Positions 372 through 52,440 of a DNA stretch of 64,000 bases are shown one piece after another. The notes under the pieces were generated by a model that saw only the letters and a list, made by a program, of their open reading frames with translations, searched no databases and was not told where the DNA came from. Position 1 is the first letter of the stretch. Each line of letters opens with the position of its first letter. The DNA is from Cycloclasticus sp. (GTDB lineage: Bacteria > Pseudomonadota > Gammaproteobacteria > Methylococcales > Cycloclasticaceae). A program made the position numbers and the translations under genes. The stretch is taken from assembly GCA_036961325.1 (NCBI GenBank), contig JBALVF010000002.1, forward strand, positions 210,733 through 274,732, read 5' to 3'.

Positions 372-699
372 AACGCCATTTTACAAAAAATTAATCGTAA
401 CCTGATCAAGAACAAGATCGGCTAAATTATTTGCACGTTTCTTATTCACTGAAGAGGTAGAATTTATTTTCGGTATTGGTGTAAAGGGCAGGCGGGGTGT
501 CATGGCTACGTAGACTGCCTCAAAACAAGCCTGTTAGCGCCAAACTGCCGTGTAGCAAGGTTTAATAACGCTATAAGCACAGAAGATAACGATAGTTGGT
601 TAAGGAGATACCAGCGTAACGCAGAAGAACAGCTATTCAGACGGGTTGATTTTTATATTACACAACCATTAGCTACCTACTGGGCCATAAAGGAAGAAT

Positions 700-6004: not shown

Positions 6005-7405
6005 TTGGCTAAATTAACGTTTTATGGTGCAACAGAAGGTGTAACCGGTTCTTCCTATATTTTAGAGACGGGTGGTAAAACAATATTATTGGATTGCGGT
6101 CTTTTTCAAGGTGGGCGTGAAGCAGAAAAGTCGAATAAAGATCCGTTTCAATTTGACGTGAGCAAGATCGATGCGGTGGTTTTATCGCACGCACATTTGG
6201 ATCATTCTGGACGTTTGCCTAAATTGGTCGCCGAGGGTTATCAACGGTCTTTATATATGACAGATCCTAGCTGCGAGCTATTAGAAATTATGCTGAAAGA
6301 CGCGGCGTTTCTACAACAGCGCGATACAGAATGGGAAAATAAGCGCAGGCGTCGGCAAGGCAAAGATGAGATTGAAGCCATCTATACGATTGAAGACGTT
6401 GAAGCAACATTGGCACTGTGTGACGGTACTGCTTACGGCGTTCGTCGTGAAATACTGGAAGGCGTTGAGGTCTGTTTTCGAGACGCCGGGCATATCCTGG
6501 GTTCGTCCATCGTCGAATTATTTATCAATGAGAATGGCACAGAAAAAAAACTGGTGTTTTCTGGCGACCTTGGTAATAGCTGTGCGGCCTTATTGCGTGA
6601 CCCAGAAATAGTTGATAAGGCAGATGTGCTCATGCTGGAGTCGACCTATGGCGATCGTAACCACCGCCCGATGGATGAAACCCTGGACGAGTTTGCAAGC
6701 ATCATTACTGAAGCCTCAAAAAATGGCGGTAATATTTTGATCCCGTCTTTTGCCGTCGGTCGAACACAGGAAATTATCTTTCGTCTGGGTGAGCTTTATC
6801 AAAAAGGGTTGTTACGACACCAAGCCGTTTATCTGGATAGCCCAATGGCTATCGCCGTGACCGAGGTCTATCACCGTTACCAAAATTTTTATAATAAAGA
6901 AGATGCATCGACGATGCGGAAGGGCGCAAAAATGAGTTTACATTCCTTTCTACCGATACTGCGATATACCCCCTCAACAGAAGAGTCGATGGCGTTGAAT
7001 AATATAGAAGCAGGCGCAATTATTATTGCGGGCAGTGGAATGTGTACGGGAGGCCGTATACGCCATCATTTCAAGCATAATATATGGAAAAGGAAGGCAC
7101 ACGTAGTGATCGTCGGTTATCAAGCGGTTGGCACGCCTGGACGCTCTTTAGTAGATGGTGCGAAAACGTTTCGTCACGGTGGTGATGACATTGCTGTACA
7201 GGCTACTATTCATACCTTAGGCGGGTTTTCTGCCCACGCCAGCCAGTCGCAACTGGTCGACTGGATCAGTCACTTCAAAACACCACACCCAAGGTTATAT
7301 CTAGTCCATGGCGAAACGGAGACCAAATCAACTTTCCAAAAACACCTGGCAGGGGTTGGCTGGTCAGCCGAAATACCGCATGAAGGTGAAAGTATTACGT
7401 TTTAA
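6005..7405 (+). CDS. MBL-fold beta-CASP RNA-metabolising metallo-hydrolase
   Basis: HAHLDH, AGHILGS, FSGDLG, ESTYGDR, AVGRTQE, GFSAHA, VHGE motifs; GGAG RBS before TTG start. Confidence 0.92.
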   Translation: MAKLTFYGATEGVTGSSYILETGGKTILLDCGLFQGGREAEKSNKDPFQFDVSKIDAVVLSHAHLDHSGRLPKLVAEGYQRSLYMTDPSCELLEIMLKDAAFLQQRDTEWENKRRRRQGKDEIEAIYTIEDVEATLALCDGTAYGVRREILEGVEVCFRDAGHILGSSIVELFINENGTEKKLVFSGDLGNSCAALLRDPEIVDKADVLMLESTYGDRNHRPMDETLDEFASIITEASKNGGNILIPSFAVGRTQEIIFRLGELYQKGLLRHQAVYLDSPMAIAVTEVYHRYQNFYNKEDASTMRKGAKMSLHSFLPILRYTPSTEESMALNNIEAGAIIIAGSGMCTGGRIRHHFKHNIWKRKAHVVIVGYQAVGTPGRSLVDGAKTFRHGGDDIAVQATIHTLGGFSAHASQSQLVDWISHFKTPHPRLYLVHGETETKSTFQKHLAGVGWSAEIPHEGESITF

Positions 7406-7465
7406 ATATAAAGCTCTATGGCTTTTACTTTAGACTGGTTTAGAAGGGTGGGGGAGTAGTTCCTT
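6900..7465 (+). repeat. Direct repeat copy 1 (MBL 3' third plus 60 nt downstream)
   Basis: Aligns gap-free to 23575..24140 at an offset of 16675 bp; about 34 mismatches in 566 nt by hand count. Confidence 0.95.
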
Positions 7466-7482
7466 CTAATAACTTGTTAGGC
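7464..7482 (+). other. attI-like integron recombination site (copy 1, upstream part deleted)
   Basis: TTCTAAT-AACTT-GTTAGGC fits L box / 5-nt spacer / R box. GTTAGGC is the exact complement of the next attC R'' (GCCTAAC). Confidence 0.7.
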
Positions 7483-7505
7483 GCAAATTAAAAGGTAACA
7501 ATCTT

Positions 7506-8384
7506 ATGTTCATAGTTAGAAATATTCTGGTGATATTAATCATTATGTTTTCAGGTAGTAATATTAATTTGTATGCTCAGGAAATAATTGATAGTGGTGA
7601 TGAAAAAATCAACAAACCATTATATAAGCCTTTTATAGAAAGATACGTTCTCGATGAGCTAAAACAATTACGTCAGGATCAATCAAATCTACGAGTAGAA
7701 GTTACCGAGAAAGTTGCAAATGCAAAGTTAGATTCGTCTGATAGAGTTATTAGATATACCGCTGATACAACAAATATCATTTTTTATATAATAACTGCGG
7801 CGGCTTCTATCATAGTTTTTCTAGGATGGAACTCATTGCGAGATATAAAAGACAAAATAGAATTTATTACGACTGAAAAATTGTCAGTTCTTACTCAGGA
7901 ATACGAAAATAGGTTAGATGAATTAGAGAATAAGCTGAAGAATCGTTCAGAACAAATAATAGCGACACAAGAGGAAGTGTCAAATTCAAACACAATACAT
8001 TCTTTGTGGATGCGAGCAGGACTAGAAAAAAGCGATCAAGAGAAGCTCAATATATATGATCATATATTAGAGATTAATCCTGATGATACGGAGGCACTAA
8101 CGTATAAGGCTGATGTTTTATTGGATTTGGGTGAAATAAAATGGGCTCTGTCATTATCAAACCAAGCGATAGAAAATGATAGTAATTATGCTTTAGCCTA
8201 TTGGCAGAGAGCTTGTGCTAAAGCGATGCTAGAGCAAGAAAGCGAAGCCTTAGAAGACATAAAAATGGCTATTAAACTTACTGATACCCTAAAAGATGAA
8301 ATAGCCGATGAAATTTATTTTGAGAGACTGAAATCTAATCATGAGTTTCTTGCTTTAATGGAAGAAATGGATTCTACGACTTAA
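7506..8384 (+). CDS. Membrane-anchored TPR-repeat protein (cassette)
   Basis: N-terminal hydrophobic segment, second TM, coiled coil, then TPR-like repeats (ALTYKADVLLDLGE, ALAYWQRACAKA); AT-rich. Confidence 0.75.
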   Translation: MFIVRNILVILIIMFSGSNINLYAQEIIDSGDEKINKPLYKPFIERYVLDELKQLRQDQSNLRVEVTEKVANAKLDSSDRVIRYTADTTNIIFYIITAAASIIVFLGWNSLRDIKDKIEFITTEKLSVLTQEYENRLDELENKLKNRSEQIIATQEEVSNSNTIHSLWMRAGLEKSDQEKLNIYDHILEINPDDTEALTYKADVLLDLGEIKWALSLSNQAIENDSNYALAYWQRACAKAMLEQESEALEDIKMAIKLTDTLKDEIADEIYFERLKSNHEFLALMEEMDSTT

Positions 8385-8435
8385 CATTATAATGTAGATG
8401 AATCGTTATTATTTTGTGCTTTTCAATTCAATAAG

Positions 8436-8522
8436 GCCTAACAAAGCGGTCAAGTTCGCATGTGCAAAAAGCGCATATGCTTGGACTCCGCTTACGCTTC
8501 GCCACTTACCTCGGCGTTATGC
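8436..8522 (+). other. attC site
   Basis: R'' GCCTAAC; L'' GGT(C)AAGT pairs with L' ACTTACC leaving one extrahelical base; R' GTTATGC; 87 bp imperfect palindrome. Confidence 0.9.
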
Positions 8523-8533
8523 AAAGAAAATAA

Positions 8534-9727
8534 TTGAAAAATATAAGTGCGACACTTAACATGGAATCAACGTCTCAACTTCTTATAGCGCTTGGTGGAA
8601 TTCTTCTATTGGGCCTGGTGATGTCCGCTCTCGGTCAACGGACATTGCTACCTCGAGTAACGCTGCTGTTAATTTTAGGCGTGGTCATAGGCAAGGAAAT
8701 GCTGGATATCATTCCGCTTATATTTTCCGAGTTGTTTGATATTATTGCTGTTATAGCACTACTGATGGTCGGATTTCTGTTAGGAGGAAGGCTCACCATT
8801 GATTCCCTACGGCAGTCCGTGGGCAAGGTTATGTGGATCTCCATAAGTGCAGCAATAATCACTACCCTTATTGTCAGCTTGGGGCTTGTGTGGGTCGGCG
8901 TATCGAAAGAGATTGCGATTCTGTTAGGTTGTATCGCCTCAGCCACCGCCCCAGCGGCAGTTCTGGATGTTGTTACGGAATCCAATTACAAAGGGCCATT
9001 CAAGGATTTGCTGCTTTCTATCGTTACACTTGATGACGCTTGGGCGTTGATGCTGTTTGGAATAGGTGTTGCCGTGGTTACGTCCTTAAATAGTCATGGA
9101 ATAGATGCCTCATCGATCCTGATGGCTCTTAGAGATATTGGCGGGGCTATAATTTTAGGTTTGTTGATTGGGTTTCCTGCCTCTTATTTAACGGGACGGC
9201 TTAAACCAGGGCAACCCATTTTGTCTGAAGCGCTGGGGCTTGTATTTGTCTGTGGCGGATTGGCCATCTGGTTTGATGTATCTTTTTTAATTGCTTCCAT
9301 GGTGCTCGGGGCGGTAATCACAAATTTTGCCAAACATCATGAGTATCCATTTCATGCTATTGAGGGTATTGACTGGCCGTTCATGGTGATCTTTTTCGTC
9401 CTGGCAGGGGCATCGCTTGAATTCAAGGCAGTAGCTGAGGTTGGTTTGGTCGGGACAGTGTATATTCTTGGCCGAATAGCAGGAAAACTCCTTGGGGCTA
9501 GAATTGGTAGTCAAATGAGCAGCGCAGATCAACAGACAAAAAGCTGGATGGGTGTTGCCTTATTGCCCCAGGCGGGTGTTGCTATTGGTATGGCGCTCGT
9601 AGCTTCAAACTATTTCCCTGAATATCGGCAAACATTGTTATCGGTGGTTATCAGCTCTACTATATTTTTTGAAATAATTGGTCCGGTATTTACTCGCATG
9701 GCTTTAAAGCGAGCACATAAAGCTTAA
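8534..9727 (+). CDS. Cation:proton antiporter (CPA superfamily; cassette)
   Basis: About 12 TM segments; ASATAPAAV, VTLDDAW, LLPQAGVAIGMAL motifs. Alternative ATG at 8561. Confidence 0.85.
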   Translation: MKNISATLNMESTSQLLIALGGILLLGLVMSALGQRTLLPRVTLLLILGVVIGKEMLDIIPLIFSELFDIIAVIALLMVGFLLGGRLTIDSLRQSVGKVMWISISAAIITTLIVSLGLVWVGVSKEIAILLGCIASATAPAAVLDVVTESNYKGPFKDLLLSIVTLDDAWALMLFGIGVAVVTSLNSHGIDASSILMALRDIGGAIILGLLIGFPASYLTGRLKPGQPILSEALGLVFVCGGLAIWFDVSFLIASMVLGAVITNFAKHHEYPFHAIEGIDWPFMVIFFVLAGASLEFKAVAEVGLVGTVYILGRIAGKLLGARIGSQMSSADQQTKSWMGVALLPQAGVAIGMALVASNYFPEYRQTLLSVVISSTIFFEIIGPVFTRMALKRAHKA

Positions 9728-9778
9728 CAAGAAACTCCAGCCGACACGAAAAACGTGCAGCTAAATATATCGTTAGGC
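9722..9778 (+). other. attC site (short, L-box pairing degenerate)
   Basis: R'' GCTTAAC contains the upstream gene's stop codon; central CACG-AAAAA-CGTG hairpin; R' GTTAGGC; 57 bp. Confidence 0.75.
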
Positions 9779-9812
9779 ACACGCTCAAATCTGTTTTATT
9801 TTGGGGAATGGC

Positions 9813-10532: not shown

Positions 10533-10675
10533 GAGAGTTGATTGCTGGGTATACCAGATCAGTTAAGAACTAGTTATGTGTTTCATATATTTACATCAAG
10601 AGCACATCAATAAAACTTATGAGAATTCACGATTCAAGGCTTGCCCCTTTAACCTTACTTAAAATTTAATTTCAT

Positions 10676-22400: not shown

Positions 22401-23429
22401 GCCCTCAACGTCATTAAGTTAAATTACCAGCTCAAATCTGGACAAGGGCAGTTAATTGGTGAAGCTGAGCTGAGCAATAGCAAACAAGGCTGGAATATTG
22501 TAAGCACAGCTAAAGGTAAGGATGTTCAAGTGTTAAACCTGCCTGAGGCATATGTAGTGGCTTCGCCCGATTTGTCCTTCGCGCTAAAAAATAATGCTTC
22601 CCAACTCTCAGGTACGGTTATTGTGCCGATTGCAGAACTGGTACCTTTGCAATTCAATTCCCCAGTGTCGGCGAGTGATGATGTGGTGGTGATAAACGGA
22701 CAAAGTGAAAAGGCAGCCCAATCAATAGCCACGGATTTTAATGTGAACCTTACATTAGGCGATAAGGTTAAGGTCGAGGGATTAGGATTTGATGGCCGAT
22801 TGTTAGGCAAACTATTAATCAGTGGCAATAGTAAAAAACTATTATTAGGCACTGGCGATATCGTCATTAAAGAAGGTAGTTACGTCGCCTATGGGCAAAA
22901 ATTAGAGATTGATAACGGTAAAATTCATTTTACCGGCGGTGCTTTAGATAATCCCAGTCTGGATATTAAAGCGATTAGAAAAAGTGGAAAAGTTACCGCT
23001 GGCCTTCAGGTAACCGGTACCGCAGATGAACCTTTAGTCGGTCTCTTTTCTAGTCCCTCAATGAGTGATGACAATATATTGTCTTACCTAATGATTGGAC
23101 GGCCACTGGCCAGTGCTTCAGCGGGTGATGCTGCAATCCTCGCTTCAGCGGCCACTGGCCTGGGTATTAAGGGGGGCAATATGTTAGGCGAACAAATCGC
23201 CAGTACCTTCGGTTTGGATTCGTTAGCAATCAATGGCAATGGTGGGGGCGATACCGCCTTACAAATAGGCAAATACCTCTCGCCTAAGTTATACCTGAGT
23301 TACGGTATTGGTTTGTTTGAACCGGTTAGTACCGTCAAGCTAAATTATGAACTCAATGAAAGTTGGTCGGTAAAAACGGAATCGGGTGTAGAGACCGAGG
23401 TCGATATCTTATATACAAAAGAAAGATAA
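19398..23429 (+). CDS. tamB: Translocation/assembly module TamB
   Basis: 1343 aa, N-terminal anchor, beta-rich body, DUF490-like C-terminus (GKYLSPKLYLSYG); overlaps the tamA stop. Confidence 0.9.
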   Translation: MMRRLVISTLVIVALLISVLVCLFTTEVGLSTSSSMLQRWVPALSIEKVTGRLNQSATLEGLVYRAADQQQYRINKLIVSLSPISLLSGRMTVDVLQLDGIELTLGSSAEKPLEDNAFLLADLALPIAFNIADLRVGNVSLINESSQKNTVFTGLSASLSASGQTLNLKQLTLQKDAEASLEIEGIISLNGTDPTHLNYRWRLATNAKPLSAEGQIKGNFADLTIEQQLLEPVQSKQTIKVTKLLSDFNWTAQAQLAALTWSDLIDGQPGGLSNATLTASGTKRNAKVIINSQLVDHALADFKLDFNANSDEADNWKINAQLLSSSKLGLTLVGYVRQPFKQPQLELEGNWQQIQWPVGADNIPLFSRKGKFSIHGKDEQYRIEALGDLDIEQQHATFSSEIDFTKDRLVLKRFDLKGFGGQTTLSGEVLFNTENPVYQLQAKLMNLTVPRALSKALMVINKGDIELSGTIDAPLLNIQAELLVDTKPVNLNLTYQTDASGSNQLNILANMKTARAKFNGTAQLSDLFKLNGVVKLHQVDPSLFAKDWPGTLSGGWQMSVNKRSGDGFDLNIKALTIDGTLRQRPLRVTADLSYLNGAINVPSLQISSAKSVIRAEGSLKDKLAFNWWLNTPNLADIHPDLTGQLHANGKLSGDMDTPSISTKLNGKNIIYTGVFQLDKVDSEVFVDMAKQGRMDVNIAFSALSLKGSQIIDGSLSMTGPTDQHNVTLKANDKTASVFGRASGGFTDQQWRGKFSELHVNQEDGTQWKAKKFGSIVLAKNHFQIDQQCLQAAQSAFCLQANYKEKGDWKSKFSLQAIPMTLVNAYTDFVEPLQGEINADIELNGQGLYPTGGRGQLNVQKARLLLDAETKDQKIIPLKQLSLSYQLSEKNSLIDLLLTPDIKGVSPLTGRLSLSDIKTAILDPDKSTVSGYLKTTVADLAEIDSLHDDYENLKGQLTVDIGVSGTVKKPLLNGLLALNNGHVELPRLGIKLEDVRVLAESDALNVIKLNYQLKSGQGQLIGEAELSNSKQGWNIVSTAKGKDVQVLNLPEAYVVASPDLSFALKNNASQLSGTVIVPIAELVPLQFNSPVSASDDVVVINGQSEKAAQSIATDFNVNLTLGDKVKVEGLGFDGRLLGKLLISGNSKKLLLGTGDIVIKEGSYVAYGQKLEIDNGKIHFTGGALDNPSLDIKAIRKSGKVTAGLQVTGTADEPLVGLFSSPSMSDDNILSYLMIGRPLASASAGDAAILASAATGLGIKGGNMLGEQIASTFGLDSLAINGNGGGDTALQIGKYLSPKLYLSYGIGLFEPVSTVKLNYELNESWSVKTESGVETEVDILYTKER

Positions 23430-23574
23430 ATTCACCGACATTTACCGTGGGCTAACTTGCGCCTGGTCAAAGACTTTTCCCTATAAGTTGCTTTTTACAT
23501 AATCGAATACGGTAATGGTTAACCCGTAGGCGCAAAATTGTGTGAATTTAAATAGCCTTAACCTGCTCAAGGAT

Positions 23575-24080
23575 AAGACGCTTCGACGATGAAGAAGGGC
23601 GCAAAAATGAGCTTGCATTCCTTTTTACCGATACTGCGATATACCCCCTCAACAGAAGAGTCGATGGCGTTGAATAATATAGAAGCAGGCGCAATTATTA
23701 TTGCGGGCAATGGCATGTGCACAGGTGGCCGTATACGGCATCATTTCAAGAACAATATATGGAAAAGGAAGGCACACGTAGTGATCGTCGGCTATCAAGC
23801 GGTTGGCACGCCTGGGCGATCTTTGGTGGATGGTGCAAAAACGTTTCATCACGGTGGTGATGATATTGCTGTTCAGGCGACTATTCATACCTTAGGCGGG
23901 TTTTCTGCCCACGCCAGCCAATCGCAACTGGTCGACTGGATAAGTCACTTCAAAACACCACACCCCAGGTTATATCTCGTCCACGGTGAAACGGAGACCA
24001 AATCAACTTTCCAAAAACACCTGGCAGGTGTTGGCTGGTCAGCCGAAATACCGCATGAAGGTGAAAGTATTACGTTTTAA
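23575..24080 (+). pseudogene. 5'-truncated second copy of the MBL beta-CASP gene
   Basis: Last 163 aa of the 6005..7405 protein with 4 substitutions (R>K, S>N in AGSGM, H>N, R>H); lacks the HxHxDH catalytic domain. Confidence 0.9.
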
Positions 24081-24140
24081 ATATAAAGCTCTATGGCTTT
24101 TACTTTAGACTGGTTAAGAAAGGTGGGGGAGTAGTTCCTT
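23575..24140 (+). repeat. Direct repeat copy 2
   Basis: Partner of 6900..7465. Confidence 0.95.
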
Positions 24141-24240
24141 GTTTGGTCTTTATTATAAGATGACAGGGTATTATAGTTCGGACAAGTGCCCGCTTTTCTT
24201 TCGGTGTATATGTAAGGGAATTACAGGGACTTTTTGTTCC

Positions 24241-24259
24241 TACTAATAACTTGTTATAA
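24241..24259 (+). other. attI-like integron recombination site (copy 2)
   Basis: TACTAAT-AACTT-GTTATAA; very close to the class 2 attI2 core as I recall it (TACTAATAAAATGTT). GTTATAA is the exact complement of the first cassette's R'' TTATAAC. Confidence 0.78.
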
Positions 24260-24262
24260 ATC

Positions 24263-24736
24263 ATGAAAAAGTTTACTTTGAGTTTGAAAGAGCAGAAATA
24301 TAATTACGGTGCATATGCATGGGTTATTTTTGACAAGGAATCTAATTTAGCCGTTAAGGTATTTAAAAAAAGGAATAGTACTGAACACGCTAGGAATGTT
24401 TTTAAATCAGAAGTAAAGGCATATGAAATAGCAATGCGCCAAGATGAAATAAGGTCATTGGTACCTTTGTTTCACGGTGAAGTTCATATAGACAAGCTTG
24501 AGAATGCAACAGAAACCTTTCATAGAGATATGGCATATGCGATGTCAATAGAACAAGATATGTTTGTAAAAATAGGAGTTATTGATAGCTTTGAAAGGAC
24601 AAGAATTACAGAACTCTTTAGAAAATTTGGAATCAATTATACCAAAGATGCCTCTGTTCTACTTAATGATGAAAACGAAGTAGTGAAAATAATTGATTTT
24701 GCAACAGAGGAATTTGAATTGTGGCATCAAGAATAA
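24263..24736 (+). CDS. Minimal protein-kinase-like protein (cassette)
   Basis: Ordered kinase-like motifs in 157 aa: YGAYAWV (Gly loop), AVKVF, SEVKAY (helix-C Glu), GINYTKDASV (catalytic-loop-like), KIIDFA (DFG-like). Confidence 0.55.
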   Translation: MKKFTLSLKEQKYNYGAYAWVIFDKESNLAVKVFKKRNSTEHARNVFKSEVKAYEIAMRQDEIRSLVPLFHGEVHIDKLENATETFHRDMAYAMSIEQDMFVKIGVIDSFERTRITELFRKFGINYTKDASVLLNDENEVVKIIDFATEEFELWHQE

Positions 24737-24740
24737 TGAC

Positions 24741-24804
24741 TTATAACAATTCGCTCAAGCAGGGTCGCATAAAAGACATGCGCCCCTTAGCTTAACCGTT
24801 AGAA
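24741..24804 (+). other. attC site
   Basis: R'' TTATAAC; GCT(C)AAG/CTTAGC and GGG(T)CGCAT/ATGCGCCC give two extrahelical bases; R' GTTAGAA; 64 bp. Confidence 0.92.
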
Positions 24805-24827
24805 CTCAACAATTACTAAGGCATACG

Positions 24828-26645
24828 ATGTTACTAAAATCAATAAAAGCAAAGAATATTCTTCCCATTCTGCGTTTTGATGTCGAAAACTTGTCAGATG
24901 TCGTAGTCCTTGCTGGCCGGAATGGTGTCGGTAAAACCAGACTATTGCAGGCACTAATTAATGGGTTCCAGAATCCGGTAGGGCAGAAAAATATTCAATA
25001 TATAATTGAAGCCACTAATGATGAAGAAAGATCGAAATGGGGTAAAAGTATATTAGATACTGGTATACCTCAAGATGCGCAGCTGCTCCAATCTACTCTC
25101 CATGAAAATAGGTTTAGAAGAAATTGGCGCGGAAGTGTAATAAATATTGAAAGTGACAGATCAATACAGAAAATAAACCCATATGCATTCACGTTCGACG
25201 CTGTCGACCCAGATAAGGAGCAAATTGGCTGGAATTTTATGCTTGGCGGAATGAGGAGTAGGCATCAAGATACCCTTCATTCTATTTTCAGAAAAGTTCA
25301 TGCACATAGAAACAAAATCTCGACCTTGGCAGAGAAGTTAATCCGTGAAGGAAAGTCTTCTATGGAGCTCAACTTCCCTGATCCATTGGAAAAGTTTAAG
25401 CATGCTTTCAGGCGGTTGCTGGCTCCAAAAGAGCTTCTTGATGCGGATTTACAATCGCAACAATTAAAATATTCTATTGGTGAGCAGGAGTTATTGTTAA
25501 ACACACTTAGCTCAGGAGAAAGAGAGGTAGTCAATATAGTTTTTGATTTTATTCTCAGAAACCCAAGCGATTGCATAGTATTTTTTGATGAGCCAGAGAT
25601 TCACCTGCACCCTGAATTAAGTTACAAACTTATTCAAACATTGACAAGTCTTGGTGATAACAACCAGTTTATATTTTGTACTCACTCACCTGACATAATA
25701 ACTGCTTCACTCGAACATTCGGTTATATTTGTTGCCCCGCCGCAGGATGCTAATACTAATCAAGCAATTACAGTATCCGAGGATGATGAAACAAATCGAG
25801 CACTTAAACTTCTAGGTCAATCTGTAGGGGTAATTGCTTTAGGCAAAAAAATCGTTCTGATAGAAGGTGAGCACGCAAGTCTAGATAAACAAACATATGG
25901 CGCTATTTTGAAAGATAACTTCCCAGAGTTAGTTTTAGTTCCTAGCGGCGGAAAAGGGCTTATTAAATCATTTTCTCTTCTTCTAAAAGAAGTGCTAGAA
26001 AAGTCTATTTGGGGAGTAGAATTTTTTATGTTGTGTGACAGGGATGTCATTCCTTTGTCCAAAACTGAAGCGGAGCTCGGAAATGGTAGATTTCAAACCA
26101 TACGAAAATATCATCTCGAGAACTACTTTTTAGATGCGGACGTTATTTCAAAGGTATTTCAAAATATAGAACCGGAAGGATCTTGGCTTCGTTCATCAGA
26201 ATCTATAAACGATAAGTTGAAAGAAATTGCTAAAGAAATGGTCTCATATTCTGTGGCCTTGTATGCAACTGCCTATTTTCGCGAACAAGTAGGCAATATC
26301 GACTTAATGCCAAAAGATTGCCATAAAAAAACGAAAGAAGAGCTAGTTGCTCTGATATTAGCAAAGTCAGAGTTAGAACTGCAGCGAGTGGGACATAGTA
26401 TGACGCCAGATGTCATATCGAATTATGTAAATGATACTGCACAAAAATTGGAAGAAAGTGTGGGCAATGGTGATGGCTGGAAGGATCTGATTCCTGGGAA
26501 GAGAATATTAAACGTATTTGCAAGCAAAGCTAATATTTCTGTTGGAAGATTGAAAAGAGCATATATTGTTGAGGCGGCAAAAGTTGAAAACAATCCTTTT
26601 CAAGATATTATAGACATATTCTCTGATTTCAACTCAATGGAGTGA
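24828..26645 (+). CDS. ABC-type ATPase fused to TOPRIM/DUF4435-like domain (OLD-family/fused PARIS-like; cassette)
   Basis: Walker A GRNGVGKT, signature LSSGEREV, Walker B FFDEPEIHLHP, H-loop THSP; C-terminal IEGE...CDRD...YHLENY...PGK. Confidence 0.8.
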   Translation: MLLKSIKAKNILPILRFDVENLSDVVVLAGRNGVGKTRLLQALINGFQNPVGQKNIQYIIEATNDEERSKWGKSILDTGIPQDAQLLQSTLHENRFRRNWRGSVINIESDRSIQKINPYAFTFDAVDPDKEQIGWNFMLGGMRSRHQDTLHSIFRKVHAHRNKISTLAEKLIREGKSSMELNFPDPLEKFKHAFRRLLAPKELLDADLQSQQLKYSIGEQELLLNTLSSGEREVVNIVFDFILRNPSDCIVFFDEPEIHLHPELSYKLIQTLTSLGDNNQFIFCTHSPDIITASLEHSVIFVAPPQDANTNQAITVSEDDETNRALKLLGQSVGVIALGKKIVLIEGEHASLDKQTYGAILKDNFPELVLVPSGGKGLIKSFSLLLKEVLEKSIWGVEFFMLCDRDVIPLSKTEAELGNGRFQTIRKYHLENYFLDADVISKVFQNIEPEGSWLRSSESINDKLKEIAKEMVSYSVALYATAYFREQVGNIDLMPKDCHKKTKEELVALILAKSELELQRVGHSMTPDVISNYVNDTAQKLEESVGNGDGWKDLIPGKRILNVFASKANISVGRLKRAYIVEAAKVENNPFQDIIDIFSDFNSME

Positions 26646-26652
26646 AAATGAG

Positions 26653-26739
26653 TTCTAACAATTACTTGCACACGGACAAAATAAAGCTACGTTGCTTCGC
26701 TCCTCCGCTTTATTTTGCCAGTGAAGCAAGACGTTATAC
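26653..26739 (+). other. attC site
   Basis: R'' TTCTAAC; CTT(G)CAC/GTGAAG; CAAAATAAAGC/GCTTTATTTTG stem; R' GTTATAC; 87 bp. Confidence 0.92.
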
Positions 26740-26752
26740 GGAGAAAACATAG

Positions 26753-27610
26753 ATGGAGACAATTTTTCATTACTGTTCATCATCTACATTCACATCGATT
26801 ATCTCTAATAATTCCATTTGGTTATCATCTTTATCTTTATCAAATGACACTATGGAGGGACGTTTCGTTGCACAAACATTCGATAAGCTACTTGCGAAAT
26901 CGGATGTAGATGCTGAAGAAGCTGAAGAAATTCGAAAAGCTCTCCGTATCACAGGAGAGCTTTTCGACGGCCTTGGTTTTTGTCTATCTGAGAAACCAGA
27001 CCTTTTAAGTCAATGGAGAGGTTACGCAGATGATGGACAAGGATTCTCCATTGGCTTTAATAAAGAATACCTTGATGAACTTTCAAATATAAAAGATAAA
27101 AATGTACCTAGCTTTAAGCTTAAAAAAGTATTTTATGAGCCAGTCGAGCATGAAGCGGAACTTAAACCCATATTTGATGAAATAATGAAACTCGTAGAAA
27201 GCGGGAAATTAAAAAAGCCAAAATATGGTTTGTTAACTATGCCTAGTGATGATGAATTAAAAACTAAGAATGACGAGTATTTAAAATCAATAAATGATTT
27301 ATGGTCTAAGGCTATTAGAACATTACCTAATATACACATACTTAAAAATAAGGCTTTTTCAGAAGAAGTTGAGTGGAGACTTATATCGTACTTATTAAAA
27401 GAGTCTGGTGACTCAGCTTTATTCAGGTCATCTGGGAACAGACTAGTTCCGTATAGAGAATTTAAATTAAAACCACTATCTTCAAATGCAATTAACGAGG
27501 TATATATTGGGCCAAAAAACATTACGCCTTATTTTGTTGTAGAGAAATTTTTATTATTAAACGGATTTCAAGGTGTAACAATAAATAAATCGGAAGCTAC
27601 ATACCGTTAA
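26753..27610 (+). CDS. DUF2971-domain protein (cassette)
   Basis: IFHYCS...SNDTMEG...FCLSEKPDLLSQWRGYADDGQGFSIGF...KNKAFSEEVEWR. Confidence 0.82.
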   Translation: METIFHYCSSSTFTSIISNNSIWLSSLSLSNDTMEGRFVAQTFDKLLAKSDVDAEEAEEIRKALRITGELFDGLGFCLSEKPDLLSQWRGYADDGQGFSIGFNKEYLDELSNIKDKNVPSFKLKKVFYEPVEHEAELKPIFDEIMKLVESGKLKKPKYGLLTMPSDDELKTKNDEYLKSINDLWSKAIRTLPNIHILKNKAFSEEVEWRLISYLLKESGDSALFRSSGNRLVPYREFKLKPLSSNAINEVYIGPKNITPYFVVEKFLLLNGFQGVTINKSEATYR

Positions 27611-27627
27611 CCTAATGGCATATAAGC

Positions 27628-27687
27628 GTATAACAAGTCAATTAGTGCGACCGCAAAAAGCGCGTCGCCTTATTTCAAACGTTAAGT
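27628..27687 (+). other. attC site
   Basis: R'' GTATAAC, GCGAC/GTCGC stem, R' GTTAAGT; 60 bp. Confidence 0.88.
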
Positions 27688-27702
27688 ATCTAAAGGTGCA
27701 TC

Positions 27703-28389
27703 GTGCAGCATTCAAAAAATAAATTTTCTAGGGTTAGCGGCATTGCGAGCACTTACATTCATCTGAAAGACATGCCGCGCGGCCTATCTTTAGAGGAAGC
27801 ACATGAGTACCTTGAGAGAATCGCAAGGAAGTGGGCAAAACTACAATACAACCGTGAATTTGACGTTAATGTTCTAGTAGAAGAAGGATCATTAATCGGG
27901 CGAATTGTCCTAAGTGGGGTCACAATATATGGATTAGTAGCTGGTTATGGCTCATTTCGTAGTGGCATTGACCACATTGTTGAGGACGGCCACGCTTTTT
28001 CAAGTCATGTAATCGATCAGTTCGAAAATGACTATCACATAACTGACGATGCAATTATTCGCGCTGAGCGTAGGTTAGGTGTACCAGGTAAAATTCAACG
28101 CTTTTTCGTTCGCCTCGATGGATTAAATTCTGATGATCTCAGCCGAAATGAAAGAGAAGTTGAGATAGAGAAGCTCCAACAAGAATTTATCAAAATCATT
28201 GAGCTTCTACCTGACGATCGAGATCGAGCTATTTTCCAGGAAGCCGCCAACTCGGAACCGCACGAAACCAATGAACTGATTGATAGACAACCTCCGAACG
28301 TTCCATTTGAATGGCCCTTTGATCCCTTCCCAATCCCGGAAGGCGGGAATGTGCCGAGAATTGCCGGGCCTAGAAATGAAGATACTTAA
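27703..28389 (+). CDS. Hypothetical protein (cassette)
   Basis: 228-aa ORF filling the cassette, with its stop codon inside R''. No domain recognised; Pro-rich tail. Confidence 0.7.
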   Translation: MQHSKNKFSRVSGIASTYIHLKDMPRGLSLEEAHEYLERIARKWAKLQYNREFDVNVLVEEGSLIGRIVLSGVTIYGLVAGYGSFRSGIDHIVEDGHAFSSHVIDQFENDYHITDDAIIRAERRLGVPGKIQRFFVRLDGLNSDDLSRNEREVEIEKLQQEFIKIIELLPDDRDRAIFQEAANSEPHETNELIDRQPPNVPFEWPFDPFPIPEGGNVPRIAGPRNEDT

Positions 28390-28470
28390 CAAGTTGCTGT
28401 TGTCGCCATGCTGTGCATGGCTGGGACAGCCTACACTGTGTTGCGGCAGCCCCAAAGCAATGCGTTAGGT
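28384..28470 (+). other. attC site
   Basis: R'' ACTTAAC; GCT(G)TTG/CAAAGC; R' GTTAGGT; 87 bp. Confidence 0.88.
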
Positions 28471-28489
28471 TTATGGAGGCAACGGAACT

Positions 28490-28555
28490 AAGGGGTCAAG
28501 TCTTGAATCATGAATTTTCTCGTCGATTATACTAGGCCTCTATGGCTAGACCCTT
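28490..28555. repeat. Degenerate GGGGTC...GACCC inverted-repeat mini-element
   Basis: AAGGGGTCAAG ... CTAGACCCTT, 66 bp; similar size and ends to the elements at 54941 and 56726, different interior. Confidence 0.4.
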
Positions 28556-28593
28556 ACGAATATAATCAAAAAAGCCAGTCTCCATTGACTTCT

Positions 28594-35097: not shown

Positions 35098-35266
35098 GCA
35101 TATTTATTAATGCTTAAGTGTCGAGGAGGTTTCCAGCTGGAAGAATTACACGGCAATTATAAGATGACGGGTATCTTAACGTTTAGTAATACATAGACTT
35201 TAGGCTGATGCTAATTACCCTTTGTGTTGTAGAACTTTAAAGGCGAAGTGAATTGCTATCCGTGTG

Positions 35267-35902
35267 TTATATATCAAGTAGATTTTCTTGTAACGCCAAA
35301 TGCACTAATTCGGCAGTGGTGGTCACATTGAGACTTTTTTTAGTTTTACTCAAATAATTGGATACGGTTTTTTTAGATAAATGCATTTCGTTAGATATCT
35401 CACCAATGGATTGCCCCCTGGTTAAGCGTAAAAAAACGTCAAACTCCTTGGAGGTGAGCGCTGATAATGCAGAAATCTTTTGAGGGCCAAGCTGGCTTAA
35501 TGCAATTTTATCGGCTATATCAGGACTGATAAATCTCTTGCCTTTTACAACCTCAGCTAAAGCTTGCATTAGAATAACCCCACTACTTGACTTGGTAACA
35601 TACCCAGTAGCGCCTGCCTTGAAACACCTTTCAACCAGACTTTGGTGATCATACAATGAGGCAACTAAAATATACGCCTTTTCCTGGTGGTTGATAATGC
35701 GATGGATAGAACTCGCTATTCCTATGCCAGGCATCATCACATCAATGACGACTAGATCAGGTAGAAATTCTTTAAAAAGATTAACGGCTTCCTCGCCATT
35801 ACAAGCCTCAGCTACGACTTCGTGTAAGCCTGTCGATTCAAAAAGGCGTCGATAACCTGATCGAACTATTGGGTGGTCATCTGCAATTAGTATACGACTC
35901 AT
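35267..35902 (-). CDS. NarL/LuxR-family response regulator
   Basis: ADDHPIVR, IDVMMPG receiver domain; C-terminal LuxR-type HTH. Confidence 0.9.
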   Translation of the reverse strand: MSRILIADDHPIVRSGYRRLFESTGLHEVVAEACNGEEAVNLFKEFLPDLVVIDVMMPGIGIASSIHRIINHQEKAYILVASLYDHQSLVERCFKAGATGYVTKSSSGVILMQALAEVVKGKRFISPDIADKIALSQLGPQKISALSALTSKEFDVFLRLTRGQSIGEISNEMHLSKKTVSNYLSKTKKSLNVTTTAELVHLALQENLLDI

Positions 35903-35924
35903 TCCTTTACAATATTCCTATTTA

Positions 35925-37115
35925 TCAAACATAAGGTAACTGTACATGAATTTGAGCCCCACCTGCTGACGAGTCTCCACGATACAATGAACCGCCCAGT
36001 GATCTCACTCGCTCATTCATATATTTTAAGCCTAAACAACGGTTGTTGAATGTTTTAGGAAATCCACAGCCGTTATCAGAAATAACTAAGTCAACAATAA
36101 AACCACTACCTTTATTATTAATGAATTCTTTTGTAATCAACTTATTGTCTTGTTGTTCCATTTTATAAATGGAGAAGGCTGCTTGAACTTCTGTCGCCCC
36201 TGAGTGCCGAGTAATATTAGTCAACGCTTCTTGTGTCACGCGATATAGCATTTCTTTAATGTCTAAAGGCAGATCAGAATCTACCTTAGCGTTTAAAGTT
36301 ATTTGACCTATAACATTTCGATTCCTCTTATTCCAATCAGAAAATAAATCTTGAAGCATTTCATTAACTGTCAAATGTAAAATAACAGTGCGTGGATTTA
36401 GTCGGATGCTGATATTCCTGATAGTTTTAAGAAATTTTTCGGATAGTTTTATAATGTCGTTGATAGTTTCAGTTTCAGAAGCTGATCGCCCATTTTCCTG
36501 AATAGCTAAAAAATCTGCATTTAACTTAATTGCCGTACCTATTTGTCCTATTTCATCGTGCAAATCCTGAGACAGCTGTCGTCGTTCGTTATCTGTCGCG
36601 ATAACGATATCCTGAGTGAGTTTTTTATTTTCTTCGAGTAGCTTACCTAAAGACAACGTCGTATTTTTTAAAGCGGTGACGTCAACGGATGTTTTTATGG
36701 CGACAAACCTTCCATCATCCCAACGCATAACTTGATCGCAGCATTGAAACCATTTTTTTTTCATTAAGTTTAGGTAAGTCGAGTGGCGGATTCCCGTTGG
36801 TTGGCCTTTCTCGTTTATTAAGTTTTTATTCGTACAAAATTCACAAACTTTATTTTGTCCTTTTTGTAGCACCTTCCAGCATTTCTTTCCAACAACGGAA
36901 CCAAATAAATCGACGATTTTTTTGTTGGCAAAAATTATTTCTTCAGTCATTAGATCAACTATATAAATAGGTTCGTCGATAGTATCTAAGATATTTTTTA
37001 ATAACGTATTATCGGATGATTTATCACTCTGGGTTTTACTGTTTAAAGCCGTTAAGGTGTTTTTTTCCAGAAGACCAATAAGTTCTTTTTTTGATAGTGC
37101 TGAATAGAGTGTCAT
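35925..37115 (-). CDS. Soluble PAS-domain sensor histidine kinase (HisKA_3)
   Basis: SQDLHDEIGQ H-box, EALTNITRH, SDNGCGF; no TM segment; PAS contains KKCW...VCEFC. Confidence 0.88.
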   Translation of the reverse strand: MTLYSALSKKELIGLLEKNTLTALNSKTQSDKSSDNTLLKNILDTIDEPIYIVDLMTEEIIFANKKIVDLFGSVVGKKCWKVLQKGQNKVCEFCTNKNLINEKGQPTGIRHSTYLNLMKKKWFQCCDQVMRWDDGRFVAIKTSVDVTALKNTTLSLGKLLEENKKLTQDIVIATDNERRQLSQDLHDEIGQIGTAIKLNADFLAIQENGRSASETETINDIIKLSEKFLKTIRNISIRLNPRTVILHLTVNEMLQDLFSDWNKRNRNVIGQITLNAKVDSDLPLDIKEMLYRVTQEALTNITRHSGATEVQAAFSIYKMEQQDNKLITKEFINNKGSGFIVDLVISDNGCGFPKTFNNRCLGLKYMNERVRSLGGSLYRGDSSAGGAQIHVQLPYV

Positions 37116-37371
37116 TTTTTTAGTTAACCTTTAAATCATAGAATTACAGCGATTTTTAATCGTTTGGTTTTTAATTTAGTAACTCTTGTTGGAATTTTAA
37201 GTTAAATATTAAGACAAAAATTTTATTTTAAGGCCGAAAAAGTTAAATGGTTGAATTCATGAGAAATGCCCGTATTAAATTGGGAATACTTCCCATGTTT
37301 ATTTTTTAGTTGCTCATCTATGCTTTCAATGTGATTTAAGTATTTTAAATGTATCAAAAGGAGAGGATTGT

Positions 37372-37476
37372 ATGATTTTAAAAAACAAAAAATATTGCAG
37401 AGTGGCAGGTAACTTTATCGCTCATAAGTACCTATCTTCATTGTCGGGCTTATCTCTTAAAACACTTTATCTTTAA
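37372..37476 (+). other. 34-codon ORF in frame with the downstream GGDEF-EAL gene, separated from it by one TAA
   Basis: AAAAGGAGAGG RBS, ATG at 37372, TAA at 37474, then 4 codons to ATG at 37489 in the same frame. Confidence 0.6.
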
Positions 37477-37488
37477 GTAGCATTTATT

Positions 37489-39141
37489 ATGCTGACTGCG
37501 GCTGTTTTTTTTGAGGAATCATCATTAGGGATGATGTTTACCGATAAAAATATGAACATCACACTAGTTAATGAAGCGTTTACTAATATAACTGGGTATT
37601 TAGCCGAAGAAGCCATTAACCAGAAACCCACAATACTTAATTCAGGTAAACAAGACAGGGTTTTTTATCAACAGATGTGGTATTCCATCAATTCCAATGG
37701 ATATTGGACAGGTGAAATATGGAATAGACGGAAAAACGGTGAAATTTATCCGGAGCTGATGACAATAAACGTAATTTATAGAGATGACGGCGAACAAAAA
37801 GGATTTATTGCAGTTTTTTCGGATATTTCTAATGTAAAAAGTGGGGGGAATAATCTTGGGTATTTGGCAAGTCACGACCCATTAACGGGCCTGCCTAATA
37901 GGCTTTTTATAAGTTCCCAATTTGAAACGGCGATAGAAAGGGCGAAGCGAAACGACTCAGTGTTAGCGCTACTTTTTATCGATCTTGATAATTTTAAACC
38001 AGTGAATGATGTCTTTGGTCATTCAGTCGGTGACACAGTATTACAGAAGGTTGCCGAGCGTCTTGTCGCGCAATTAAGAAAATCGGAAACGGTATCCCGT
38101 TGGGGCGGGGATGAGTTTATTGTTGTATTAGAAGATATAGAATCAGCTGCGAATATATCGTTGGTCGCGGCTAAATTATTAAACGCTATCAGTAGTCCTT
38201 TTATTGTTGATCGGAATGAAATATTTATCGGCTGTAGTATCGGTGTTTCAGTGCTATCTGAAAATTTACAGAGTAATGAATCTGATGCTTTAGTTCGAAA
38301 TGCAGGCACGGCCATGTATCAAGCTAAAAAAGATGGGGGTAATAAATATCACTTTTATGATGAGGAGATGGAGAAGGCGCTACATCACAGGTTGTTTTTA
38401 GAAAGAGAATTACACAATGCTATAGAAAACGACGAACTTGAGCTCCATTATCAAGCAAAGTTCTGTACGAAAACGCAAAAAATCCAAGGGGTAGAGGCAT
38501 TAATACGCTGGTTACACCCAGTGAAAGGATTCATTCCTCCCGATCAGTTTATCCCTATTGCCGAGGAGACAGGCCTAATTATTCCAATAGGGGATTGGGT
38601 GATTCGCACAGCTTGCCAGCAAGCACTAATCTGGATAAAAGAAGGAACACCAGTTCAGGTCGCAGTGAATGTCTCTGCAAGGCAGCTCAATAGCGGGAAT
38701 CTTCATGAGGAGATCGAGTCTATTTTGTCAGAAACGGGCTTGCCTCCACACTTGCTAGAAATAGAATTAACAGAGAGCCTGCTGATAAAGAATGTTTCGG
38801 AAACTGTTTTTTTACTGGATAAGTTAACAGAGCTCGGTGTCTCCATAGCGATTGATGACTTTGGTACAGGTTTCTCATCGCTGAGCTATTTAACGCAGTT
38901 TCCTGTAAAAAAACTAAAAATAGATCGTTGTTTTGTTCAGAAAATCTCTTCAGATAGCGCTGATAGGCGTTTGGTAAATGCCATTGTAGCGTTGGCACAT
39001 TCAATCGACCTTGAAGTGGTAGCGGAAGGAATCGAAACAACGGAACAATTGACGTATTTTAAAGAAATTAAATGTGACTTCGTTCAGGGCTTTTTATTAG
39101 CGAAACCCGTTGAGGCTGAATTAATGAAATTCACCGCATGA
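37489..39141 (+). CDS. PAS-GGDEF-EAL c-di-GMP turnover protein
   Basis: PAS/PAC, HDPLTGLPNR, WGGDEF, EALIRW, DDFGTGFSSLSYL. Confidence 0.92.
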   Translation: MLTAAVFFEESSLGMMFTDKNMNITLVNEAFTNITGYLAEEAINQKPTILNSGKQDRVFYQQMWYSINSNGYWTGEIWNRRKNGEIYPELMTINVIYRDDGEQKGFIAVFSDISNVKSGGNNLGYLASHDPLTGLPNRLFISSQFETAIERAKRNDSVLALLFIDLDNFKPVNDVFGHSVGDTVLQKVAERLVAQLRKSETVSRWGGDEFIVVLEDIESAANISLVAAKLLNAISSPFIVDRNEIFIGCSIGVSVLSENLQSNESDALVRNAGTAMYQAKKDGGNKYHFYDEEMEKALHHRLFLERELHNAIENDELELHYQAKFCTKTQKIQGVEALIRWLHPVKGFIPPDQFIPIAEETGLIIPIGDWVIRTACQQALIWIKEGTPVQVAVNVSARQLNSGNLHEEIESILSETGLPPHLLEIELTESLLIKNVSETVFLLDKLTELGVSIAIDDFGTGFSSLSYLTQFPVKKLKIDRCFVQKISSDSADRRLVNAIVALAHSIDLEVVAEGIETTEQLTYFKEIKCDFVQGFLLAKPVEAELMKFTA

Positions 39142-39279
39142 TTTTAAAAATTCTAATGGAATGAAATATCGTCAATGGGGACTAACTGACGGCATAGAAA
39201 GGTCATGGAATAGTGTCCTTTTGAATAGATAGAATAAAAATAGCTCTAGAAATAATTGATCACTTAAAAAGGAAAATAT

Positions 39280-40857: not shown

Positions 40858-40962
40858 CGGGTTTTGTAGTCGGCTTAACTAGTTAATAGGCGTCCTACTG
40901 TGCCGTGGCAGATGGTAACAATTGTCGTAGCCGAATACCTCCAGCCTACAGGTAATGAGTTC

Positions 40963-52400: not shown

Positions 52401-52440
52401 AAAACTCGCAAGCGGAATCTATTGGGTGGTATTGTTAGTA

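What the first reader, a model, noticed from the sequence alone, without database searches (positions are those of the whole stretch)
23575..28470. Integrase-less integron platform: attI2-like site anchored behind a beta-CASP ribonuclease gene, with four intact cassettes
Canonical integrons have intI divergently adjacent to attI. Here the attI-like site follows the 3' end of an MBL gene in both copies, and no tyrosine recombinase is encoded in the window. Yet all four cassettes have perfectly complementary R''/R' cores and correct extrahelical bases, which implies recent integrase activity. This suggests a satellite capture platform served in trans by an intI elsewhere, or very recent intI loss. 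That differs from an ordinary attC-only CALIN.
Basis: partly seen in the sequence, partly recalled or inferred. Interest (0 to 1): 0.8.

Follow-up and report, generated by a model that had tools for sequence, protein, structure and literature searches.

The report
Orphan attI site with integron cassettes
Two integron gene-cassette arrays in a Cycloclasticus-type chromosome start at a conserved attI2-like docking site behind a ribonuclease gene with no integrase beside them; this is a known class of element (CALIN), probably served by an integron integrase encoded elsewhere in the genome.

Summary
Window 24254-28464 holds four intact integron cassettes. Each ends in an attC whose R'' core is 7/7 complementary to the first bases of its own cassette.

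The array starts at G|TT (24253|24254) in the motif CTAATAACTTG|TTA. That motif occurs once more in the window (7466-7479), where a second, shorter array begins. It matches the attI crossover core I recovered from five IntI2-clade integrons (ACTAAYAnnnTG|TTA).

The window encodes no tyrosine recombinase. Related Cycloclasticus contigs carry the same gene, spacer and site with four different first cassettes at the identical G|TT, so the site has been used repeatedly without an adjacent intI.

The two copies are not independent. Copy B is the ancestral locus after a microhomology-mediated deletion of its 5' part.

IntegronFinder 2.0's published table lists one complete integron plus one or two CALINs in all three complete Cycloclasticus genomes. 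An intI acting in trans is therefore the likely recombinase, and such arrays are already catalogued.

Verdict: two CALINs with a recognisable orphan attI. They are well documented here but of a known kind. Interest is moderate.

The parts
6005..7405 (+). Full-length beta-CASP MBL-fold ribonuclease-like gene (466 aa), anchor of array A
   Evidence: Pfam Lactamase_B + Beta-Casp + RMMBL. 96% identical to a Cycloclasticus MAG protein.
7406..7476 (+). Short spacer A, ending in the attI-like core CTAATAACTTG (crossover after G7476)
   Evidence: Alignment with copy B shows a 104-nt deletion between GTTCCT repeats. Motif hit at 7466-7479.
7477..8516 (+). Cassette A1: TPR protein ORF 7506-8384, attC 8436-8522
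   Evidence: R'' GCCTAAC is 7/7 complementary to the opening GTTAGGC. It has the canonical L-box bulge GGT[C]AAGT. It is replaced by another cassette in L001 at the same boundaries.
8517..9772 (+). Cassette-like unit A2: Na+/H+ exchanger ORF 8534-9727 with a 57-nt attC-like site 9722-9778
   Evidence: R'' GCTTAAC is 6/7 complementary to GTTATGC. Fold z is -1.98. The unit is absent from L083/L164 arrays and present in L001/L082. Weaker than the other sites.
23430..23578 (+). Segment J between tamB and the truncated MBL copy. The deletion junction lies at about 23575-23578.
   Evidence: 89% identical to L083 4907-5054, where it continues into the NaPi upstream region. The junction is at a shared AAGA.
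23575..24080 (+). Truncated 3' copy of the MBL gene (last ~168 codons), a non-functional remnant
   Evidence: 92% identical to 6900-7405. Pfam finds only partial Beta-Casp plus RMMBL.
24081..24253 (+). Long spacer B, ending in the attI-like core ACTAATAACTTG (crossover after G24253)
   Evidence: 92-94% identical to the spacer behind the full MBL gene in L001, L083 and L164. The core equals the IntI2-clade attI core.
24254..24798 (+). Cassette B1: ORF 24263-24736 (157 aa, unknown), attC 24741-24804
   Evidence: R''/R' chain rule 7/7. Canonical GCT[C]AAG bulge. Fold z is -4.97.
24799..26733 (+). Cassette B2: ORF 24828-26645 (605 aa), a fused AriA-AriB (PARIS-like) ATPase-nuclease; attC 26653-26739
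   Evidence: PADLOC AriAB E=1.5e-60. Pfam AAA_15/AAA_21. Chain rule 7/7. Fold z is -3.85.
26734..27681 (+). Cassette B3: ORF 26753-27610 (DUF2971), attC 27628-27687
   Evidence: Pfam DUF2971, with a weak PADLOC PDC-S31 hit. Chain rule 7/7. Fold z is -2.43. An attC like this one sits next to other cassettes in metagenome runs, diverging right after GTTA.
27682..28464 (+). Cassette B4: ORF 27703-28389 (228 aa, unknown), attC 28384-28470
   Evidence: Chain rule 7/7. Fold z is -1.33. In run X2 a contig joins about 27689 to about 28484, consistent with absence of this cassette.
28488..28566 (+). REP-like repeat that bounds the distal end of the array
   Evidence: Same element after the last cassette in L164. 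Three copies in L163, next to a fragment that reads like a RAYT-type (REP-associated tyrosine) transposase; that family name rests on my reading of the translation and was not scanned against Pfam.

Best explanation
These are two integrase-less integron cassette arrays (CALINs) in a Cycloclasticus-type chromosome. Each array begins at an orphan attI-type site whose crossover core (ACTAATAAnnnG|TTA) is that of the IntI2 clade of integrons. The site lies about 70-175 nt downstream of a beta-CASP MBL gene.

How it works. An integron integrase encoded elsewhere, most likely the resident chromosomal intI that every complete Cycloclasticus genome carries, recombines folded attC sites of circular cassettes with this site at G|TT. 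It also excises cassettes by attC x attC recombination. The content of the arrays therefore turns over between strains.

History. Copy B (23575-28470) is the original locus. It sits between tamB and the cus operon, as in strains L083 and L164. It lost its 5' part (NaPi..MBL-5') through a deletion at a 4-nt microhomology. Copy A is a second, intact copy of the same module in which 104 nt of the spacer are deleted.

What is shown and what is inferred. Shown: cassette and attC anatomy, the shared crossover point, absence of intI in cis, strain-to-strain cassette replacement, and the deletion junction. Inferred: that the site is bound and cut by an IntI, which IntI does it, and that turnover is ongoing.
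For: - Cassette anatomy and the R''/R' chain rule.
- attC heuristic: 10 hits against about 1.5 in shuffles.
- The motif CTAATAANNNGTTA occurs only at the two array starts, 2 found against 0.05 expected.
- The same core sits at the verified crossover of Tn7 attI2 and of Marinospirillum, Thalassolituus and Psychrobacter IntI2-clade integrons. The two Psychrobacter loci diverge exactly after G|TTA.
- Four different first cassettes sit at the identical G|TT behind the same MBL gene and spacer: TPR in window A and L082, the 157-aa ORF in window B, a 101-aa ORF in L001, and an Unstab_antitox/ParE pair in L083 and L164.
- Metagenome contigs change partner exactly at cassette boundaries.
- No intI or any tyrosine recombinase in the window or in any Cycloclasticus-clade locus.
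- Relatives L167-L169 have tamB directly followed by the cus operon, so B is an insertion there. L083 and L164 show the intact form. The junction is at AAGA.
- IntegronFinder 2.0 Table S3 lists one complete integron plus 1-2 CALINs in Cycloclasticus sp. P1, PY97N and C. zancles 78-ME.
Against: - I could not see the rest of this genome, so an intI in it is inferred from congeners, not shown.
- Similarity to attI2-type sites is limited to about 12-13 nt. Nothing upstream resembles accessory IntI-binding repeats.
- No promoter-like site was found in the spacer.
- Differences between strains could arise from homologous exchange of whole arrays rather than from site-specific recombination in each lineage.
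- A 78%-identical paralogue of the distal spacer, with a mutated core, lies upstream of a permease gene in L083. The spacer may therefore be a native repeat rather than a relic of an integron.
- A2 is a weak attC. B4 and A1 fold no better than many shuffles.
Confidence: 0.7

Rival explanations
1. Fossil CALIN. A classical integron once sat here, its intI was deleted, and the arrays are now inert. Differences between strains come from homologous recombination or transformation that swaps whole arrays between conserved flanks.
For: No intI in cis in any of the five contexts. The region is full of other rearrangements: a microhomology deletion, a 71-nt MBL remnant fused to a transposase-like fragment, and REP-like repeats. 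CALINs have been proposed to be degraded integrons.
Against: Strains differ cassette by cassette, exactly at G|TT, with perfect R''/R' complementarity. The integrase-less state predates 6-10% sequence divergence, yet the attC sites and ORFs are intact. Congeners carry a complete integron.
Confidence: 0.17
2. attG-type hotspot. The site is an ordinary genomic sequence that happens to be a good secondary target for IntI (Loot et al.). It is not derived from, or equivalent to, an attI. The likeness to attI2 is convergent or due to chance.
For: Cassettes can insert into genomes at GWT sites at high frequency, and small CALINs or SALINs may arise that way. There is no similarity to attI2-type sites beyond the core. 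A diverged paralogue of the spacer exists elsewhere in L083. The spacer is confined to one Cycloclasticus clade.
Against: attG sites were described as broadly different from attI in sequence. Here 12 of 12 defined core positions equal the IntI2-clade attI core, and the motif is otherwise absent from 64 kb. The same point was used at least four times.
Confidence: 0.1
3. Not an integron feature at all: the hairpins and GTT/AAC cores arise by chance in AT-rich accessory DNA.
For: B4 and A1 fold no better than many shuffles. The heuristic gives about 1.5 false hits per shuffle.
Against: 16 of 16 complementary variable positions in the chain rule. One ORF per unit. Canonical L-box bulges as in the sat2 and aadA1 attC sites. 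Replacement of units at exact boundaries in other strains.
Confidence: 0.01

Closest known systems
CALIN (cluster of attC sites lacking an integron integrase; Cury et al. 2016, IntegronFinder)
   Same: Two or more attC sites with cassettes in one orientation and no intI nearby. Cycloclasticus genomes are already listed with 1-2 CALINs each beside one complete integron.
   Different: A conserved attI-type site is identifiable at the head of the array and is reused across strains. CALIN annotation does not look for this.
Class 2 integron of Tn7 and chromosomal IntI2-clade integrons (Marinospirillum, Thalassolituus, Psychrobacter)
   Same: Crossover core ACTAAYAnnnTG|TTA followed by cassettes with canonical attC sites.
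   Different: In those integrons intI lies divergently about 300 nt from the crossover, and GCATGCYT usually precedes the core. Here a co-oriented MBL gene end lies 70-175 nt upstream, and nothing beyond the core is similar.
attG sites / SALINs (Loot et al., bioRxiv 10.1101/2022.09.11.507474)
   Same: Cassettes integrated in a chromosome outside a complete integron, at G|TT.
   Different: attG sites were reported as unlike attI and are used more or less at random. This site has an attI-type core and was hit repeatedly.
Sedentary chromosomal integrons as banks of anti-phage defence cassettes
   Same: Cassette B2 encodes a fused AriAB (PARIS-like) protein and B3 a DUF2971/PDC-S31 candidate. A toxin-antitoxin cassette occurs in sister strains.
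   Different: The arrays are very short (2 and 4 cassettes), the attC sites are heterogeneous, and there is no integrase in cis.

Membership tests
Integron gene cassette / attC site | Inverse core R'' (RYYYAAC) and core R' (G|TTRRRY) bounding an imperfect palindrome | tested here: met
   Six sites on the + strand. All carry TAACAA...GTTA, as do the dfrA1, sat2 and aadA1 attC sites of R721.
Integron gene cassette / attC site | Circular-cassette signature: the first bases of a cassette (TTnnnn) are complementary to the R'' of its own attC | tested here: met
   7/7 for B1-B4, A1 and the L001 cassette. 6/7 for A2 and for the L083 toxin-antitoxin cassette.
Integron gene cassette / attC site | L''/L' stem with an extrahelical base on the bottom strand; stable single-strand hairpin | tested here: inconclusive
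   Canonical bulge in B1 and A1 (and in L001 and the L083 cassette), as in sat2 and aadA1. The bulged base is different in B2 and B4. No strict bulge in B3 or A2. Fold z ranges from -4.97 to -0.81.
Complete integron | intI (tyrosine recombinase with the IntI-specific insertion) adjacent and divergent to attI | tested here: not met
   No Phage_integrase hit in the ORFs scanned. tblastn with IntI2 found nothing in the window or in the Cycloclasticus loci.
Complete integron | Pc promoter upstream of the first cassette | tested here: inconclusive
   No sigma-70-like match in 24081-24262 at the scan's threshold. Read-through from upstream genes was not tested.
CALIN | At least 2 attC sites clustered, with no integron integrase nearby | tested here: met
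   Array B has 4 attC sites. Array A has 1 firm plus 1 weak site. No intI within 23 kb upstream or 35 kb downstream of array B.
attI site of the IntI2 clade | Crossover core ACTAAYAnnnTG|TTA | tested here: met
   B is ACTAATAACTTG|TTA and A is TCTAATAACTTG|TTA, compared with five reference sites. The motif is found twice against 0.05 expected.
attI site of the IntI2 clade | Location beside its intI, with upstream accessory sequence similar to other attI2-type sites | tested here: not met
   No intI in cis. Ungapped identity over the 60 nt ending at the crossover G, core included, is 21-24 of 60, against 30-32 of 60 among most of the genuine sites.
attI site of the IntI2 clade | Recombines with attC under IntI | not testable with these tools
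   Indirect evidence only: four different first cassettes at the same G|TT.
attG secondary site | Genomic GWT target that is unlike attI in sequence and structure | tested here: not met
   The GTT and the genomic location fit, but the left arm equals an attI core.

The most novel reading that the evidence does not exclude
Cycloclasticus runs a 'distributed integron'. One chromosomal IntI would serve several conserved, integrase-less attI docks that are kept by selection as extra capture and expression sites, here loaded with anti-phage genes. The dock has an IntI2-clade core. It could therefore also accept cassettes through IntI2-type integrases of the kind found in marine Oceanospirillales such as Thalassolituus and Bermanella; whether these co-occur with Cycloclasticus was not tested.
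Probability: 0.3. Interest if true: 0.6.

Novelty: new member of a known kind. Interest (0 to 1): 0.4.

Why it matters
CALINs are as common as complete integrons, but their origin and activity are still debated: degraded integrons, or products of integration in trans. This locus gives an unusually clean natural test case. It has an orphan site with a recognisable attI core and a fixed chromosomal anchor. Several sequenced strains differ only by which cassette sits at the same G|TT. An assay with the resident IntI would show directly whether CALINs can act as live secondary platforms. The cassette content (a PARIS-like AriAB fusion, DUF2971, a toxin-antitoxin pair in sister strains) also fits the view of integron arrays as stores of defence genes.

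Tried and rejected
- Rfam gathering scan of the window: no hit. Rfam returned no family for these attC sites.
- My first strict attC scans (RYYYAAC/GTTRRRY plus tight energy cut-offs) missed most sites and were replaced.
- I tested whether the 104-nt extra spacer is itself a decayed attC or a structured element. It folds weakly, so I rejected this.
- The candidate attC after the DUF1780 gene (53237-53316) does not fold (z 0.12), so I rejected it.
- I looked for an intI next to MBL homologues in 80 genome loci and 80 metagenome loci. The only tyrosine-recombinase hits (about 30% identity to IntI2, so not intI) lie in distant taxa: L058, L140 and L146.
- I looked for a Cycloclasticus IntI among IntI2 homologues. 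The top 120 are Oceanospirillales, Psychrobacter and similar taxa; none is named Cycloclasticus.
- Exact-protein look-ups of cassettes B2 and B3 found nothing on record.
- The window's own genome is not among the indexed runs; the best run holds 37% of the sampled words.
Full report
**What is at 23575-28470**

The stretch opens with a truncated 3' copy of a beta-CASP MBL-fold gene (23575-24080). It is 92% identical to the end of the full gene at 6005-7405. A 173-nt spacer follows, and then four units, each with one + strand ORF and a terminal imperfect palindrome.

The palindromes are attC sites at 24741-24804, 26653-26739, 27628-27687 and 28384-28470. All start with nnnTAACAA and end with GTTAnnn, like the dfrA1, sat2 and aadA1 attC sites that I fetched from plasmid R721.

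The strongest evidence is the signature of a circular cassette. The seven bases that open each unit (GTTATAA, GTTAGAA, GTTATAC, GTTAAGT) are exactly complementary to the R'' of that unit's own attC. That is 16 of 16 variable positions.

- A crude attC scan finds these four sites and two more in a second array. It gives 10 hits against about 1.5 in shuffles, and the four extra hits lie inside long ORFs.
- Bottom-strand folds are better than shuffles for B1-B3 (z -4.97, -3.85, -2.43). For the GC-rich B4 the difference is not convincing (z -1.33).
- The canonical L-box bulge (top-strand C, bottom-strand G) is present in B1. B2 and B4 have a bulge of another base at that place, and B3 has none under strict rules.
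- GC drops to 0.36-0.38 over the array.

**The site at the head of the array**

Cassette B1 starts after G24253, in ACTAATAACTTG|TTATAA. The same CTAATAACTTG|TTA occurs once more in the window, at 7466-7479. There a second array begins behind the full-length MBL gene. It holds a TPR cassette with attC 8436-8522, then a Na+/H+ exchanger with a weaker 57-nt attC-like site at 9722-9778. The motif CTAATAANNNGTTA has 2 matches in 64 kb against 0.05 expected.

To test the label 'attI2-like' I retrieved the real attI2 of Tn7 from plasmid R721. I also retrieved four chromosomal integrons whose IntI is 64-80% identical to IntI2, from Marinospirillum, Thalassolituus and two Psychrobacter contigs. In all of them the crossover lies about 300 nt from the intI start, in ACTAAYAnnnTG|TTA. 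The two Psychrobacter contigs share everything up to G|TTA and then carry different cassettes, which fixes the crossover point.

The Cycloclasticus site fits this core at every defined position. Beyond the core there is no similarity.

**No integrase in cis**

- Pfam scans of about 40 long ORFs found no Phage_integrase domain.
- tblastn with IntI2 found nothing in the window at E<=10. It also found nothing in any related Cycloclasticus locus, while the positive controls scored 1e-141 or better.

**Comparison with other strains**

The MBL protein places the window in Cycloclasticus (96% identity to a Cycloclasticus MAG). I found the same MBL gene, spacer and core in four other contigs:

| Context | First cassette at G\|TT |
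|---|---|
| Window A and L082 | TPR protein |
| Window B | 157-aa ORF |
| L001 | 101-aa ORF, then the same junction GTTATGC to the Na+/H+ exchanger |
| L083 and L164 | Unstab_antitox/ParE pair, then an MBL-fold hydrolase and a SulP transporter, each followed by an attC-like site |

Four different first cassettes therefore sit at the identical G|TT.

Metagenome contigs add more evidence. In one run the L001-type cassette abuts the exchanger at 8515/8516. An attC like that of B3 is flanked by other sequences that diverge right after GTTA. One contig is consistent with absence of B4.

The spacer is confined to this clade. More distant MBL homologues, including another Cycloclasticus MAG, lack it.

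**Why there are two copies**

- Relatives at about 77% identity (L167-L169) have tamA-tamB directly followed by the cus operon.
- Close strains L083 and L164 have tamB-J-NaPi-VIT1-...-MBL-spacer-cassettes-REP element-cus.
- The window has tamB-J-MBL'(3' part)-spacer-cassettes-REP element-cus. Copy B is therefore the orthologue of the intact L083/L164 locus.
- The junction reads ...GGATAAGA|CGCTTCGACG. It is what a deletion between the AAGA at the end of J and the AAGA in the MBL gene would give.
- Copy A is a second, complete NaPi-VIT1-ATPase-MBL module about 8% diverged from copy B in the MBL 3' end. It has 104 nt of spacer deleted between two GTTCCT repeats.

The link between the MBL gene and the site is thus one ancestral event, not two independent ones.

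The neighbourhood shows other scars. In L163-L165 a 71-nt MBL 3' remnant is fused to a fragment that reads like a RAYT-type transposase (my reading of the translation, not a Pfam scan). A REP-like repeat sits at 28488-28566. Other strains carry a 3.8-kb insertion at 23453.

**Where the integrase may be**

I could not read the rest of this genome. IntegronFinder 2.0's Table S3 lists the following (PMC9024848, supplementary table_s3):

| Genome | Complete integron | CALINs |
|---|---|---|
| Cycloclasticus sp. P1 | 1 (1 attC) | 2 (8 and 6 attC) |
| Cycloclasticus sp. PY97N | 1 (6 attC) | 2 (2 and 3 attC) |
| C. zancles 78-ME | 1 (7 attC) | 1 (8 attC) |

All three complete Cycloclasticus genomes in that table thus carry an intI somewhere, along with integrase-less arrays. 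A separate study reports an In0 in a Cycloclasticus mussel symbiont (PMC10295459).

This makes action in trans by a resident IntI the most economical mechanism. It also means arrays of this type are already catalogued, although I found no description of their attI-like head.

**Rival readings**

- An inert fossil whose differences arise by homologous exchange is possible. It sits poorly with cassette-by-cassette differences at exact G|TT points and with intact attC sites after 6-10% divergence of the flanks.
- An attG-type hotspot (Loot et al.) is possible. The similarity stops at the core, and L083 holds a 78%-identical paralogue of the distal spacer with a mutated core (GACTAG|TCA) in front of a permease gene. 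However, attG sites were described as unlike attI, and this core matches an attI core exactly.

**Cassette content**

- B2 is a fused AriA-AriB (PARIS-like) protein (PADLOC E=1.5e-60).
- B3 is DUF2971, with weak hits to the defence candidate PDC-S31.
- B1 and B4 have no family.

**Verdict**

Recent loss of intI is unlikely, and the two copies are one event. By definition this is a CALIN, so it is a well-characterised new member of a known kind rather than a new kind of element.

Noticed in passing
window 54941-55017 and 56726-56802: Two perfect 77-nt direct repeats flank the sodium:dicarboxylate symporter gene (55089-56501, - strand). Each repeat is itself a hairpin with arms GGGGTCAGAGTAAAAA. 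A similar GGGTCAGAGTAAAA motif lies after the hydrolase cassette in L083. The repeats look like a MITE or REP-type element.
   Followed up: partly
window 52400-54904: Low-GC island (0.35-0.39) with a DUF1780 endonuclease-like gene and a NERD + Zn-ribbon gene (weak PglW hit). An R''-like GTCTAACAAACC follows the DUF1780 gene, but the stretch does not fold (z 0.12), so it is not a functional attC.
   Followed up: partly
window 28488-28566; L163 2052-2076, 3930-4000, 6234-6311; L164 8990-9067: A REP-like repeat marks the distal end of the arrays. In L163-L165 it is followed by an N-terminal fragment that reads like a RAYT-type transposase (my reading, not scanned), fused in frame to the last 71 nt of the MBL gene (= window 24014-24084), about 210 nt upstream of cusF.
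   Followed up: partly
L083 12255-12336: A diverged (78%) second copy of the distal spacer including the core position, mutated to GACTAG|TCA. It lies upstream of an amino-acid permease gene and has no cassettes behind it.
   Followed up: partly
window 9779-10579; L082 3890-4040: Most related strains leave the PEMT-family gene after about 50-65 nt of its coding sequence (9865/9866). They continue into an attC-like palindrome ending in GTTATGT, followed by the toxin-antitoxin cassette. The window keeps the full gene and has GTTATGT at 10573-10579. Array A may therefore extend further than 9778.
   Followed up: partly
window 23345-23453: In L083 and in four metagenome runs, a 3.8-kb segment is inserted after 23453 and is flanked by a duplicate of the last ~108 nt of the tamB region. 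Its content was not analysed.
   Followed up: no
window 60-420: ORF 60-371 is only the C-terminal fragment of a Na+/H+ antiporter. Homology of the NaPi module with L083 and L164 starts right at TAAC|CTG (~397), which reads G|TTA on the other strand. This may be another IntI-type breakpoint or a coincidence.
   Followed up: no
window 35100-40900: A low-GC block (LuxR-type response regulator, histidine kinase, PAS-GGDEF-EAL protein, PAS-MCP) lies between cusA and the PP2C/kinase gene. It is absent from relatives L167-L169, so it is another insertion relative to them.
   Followed up: no
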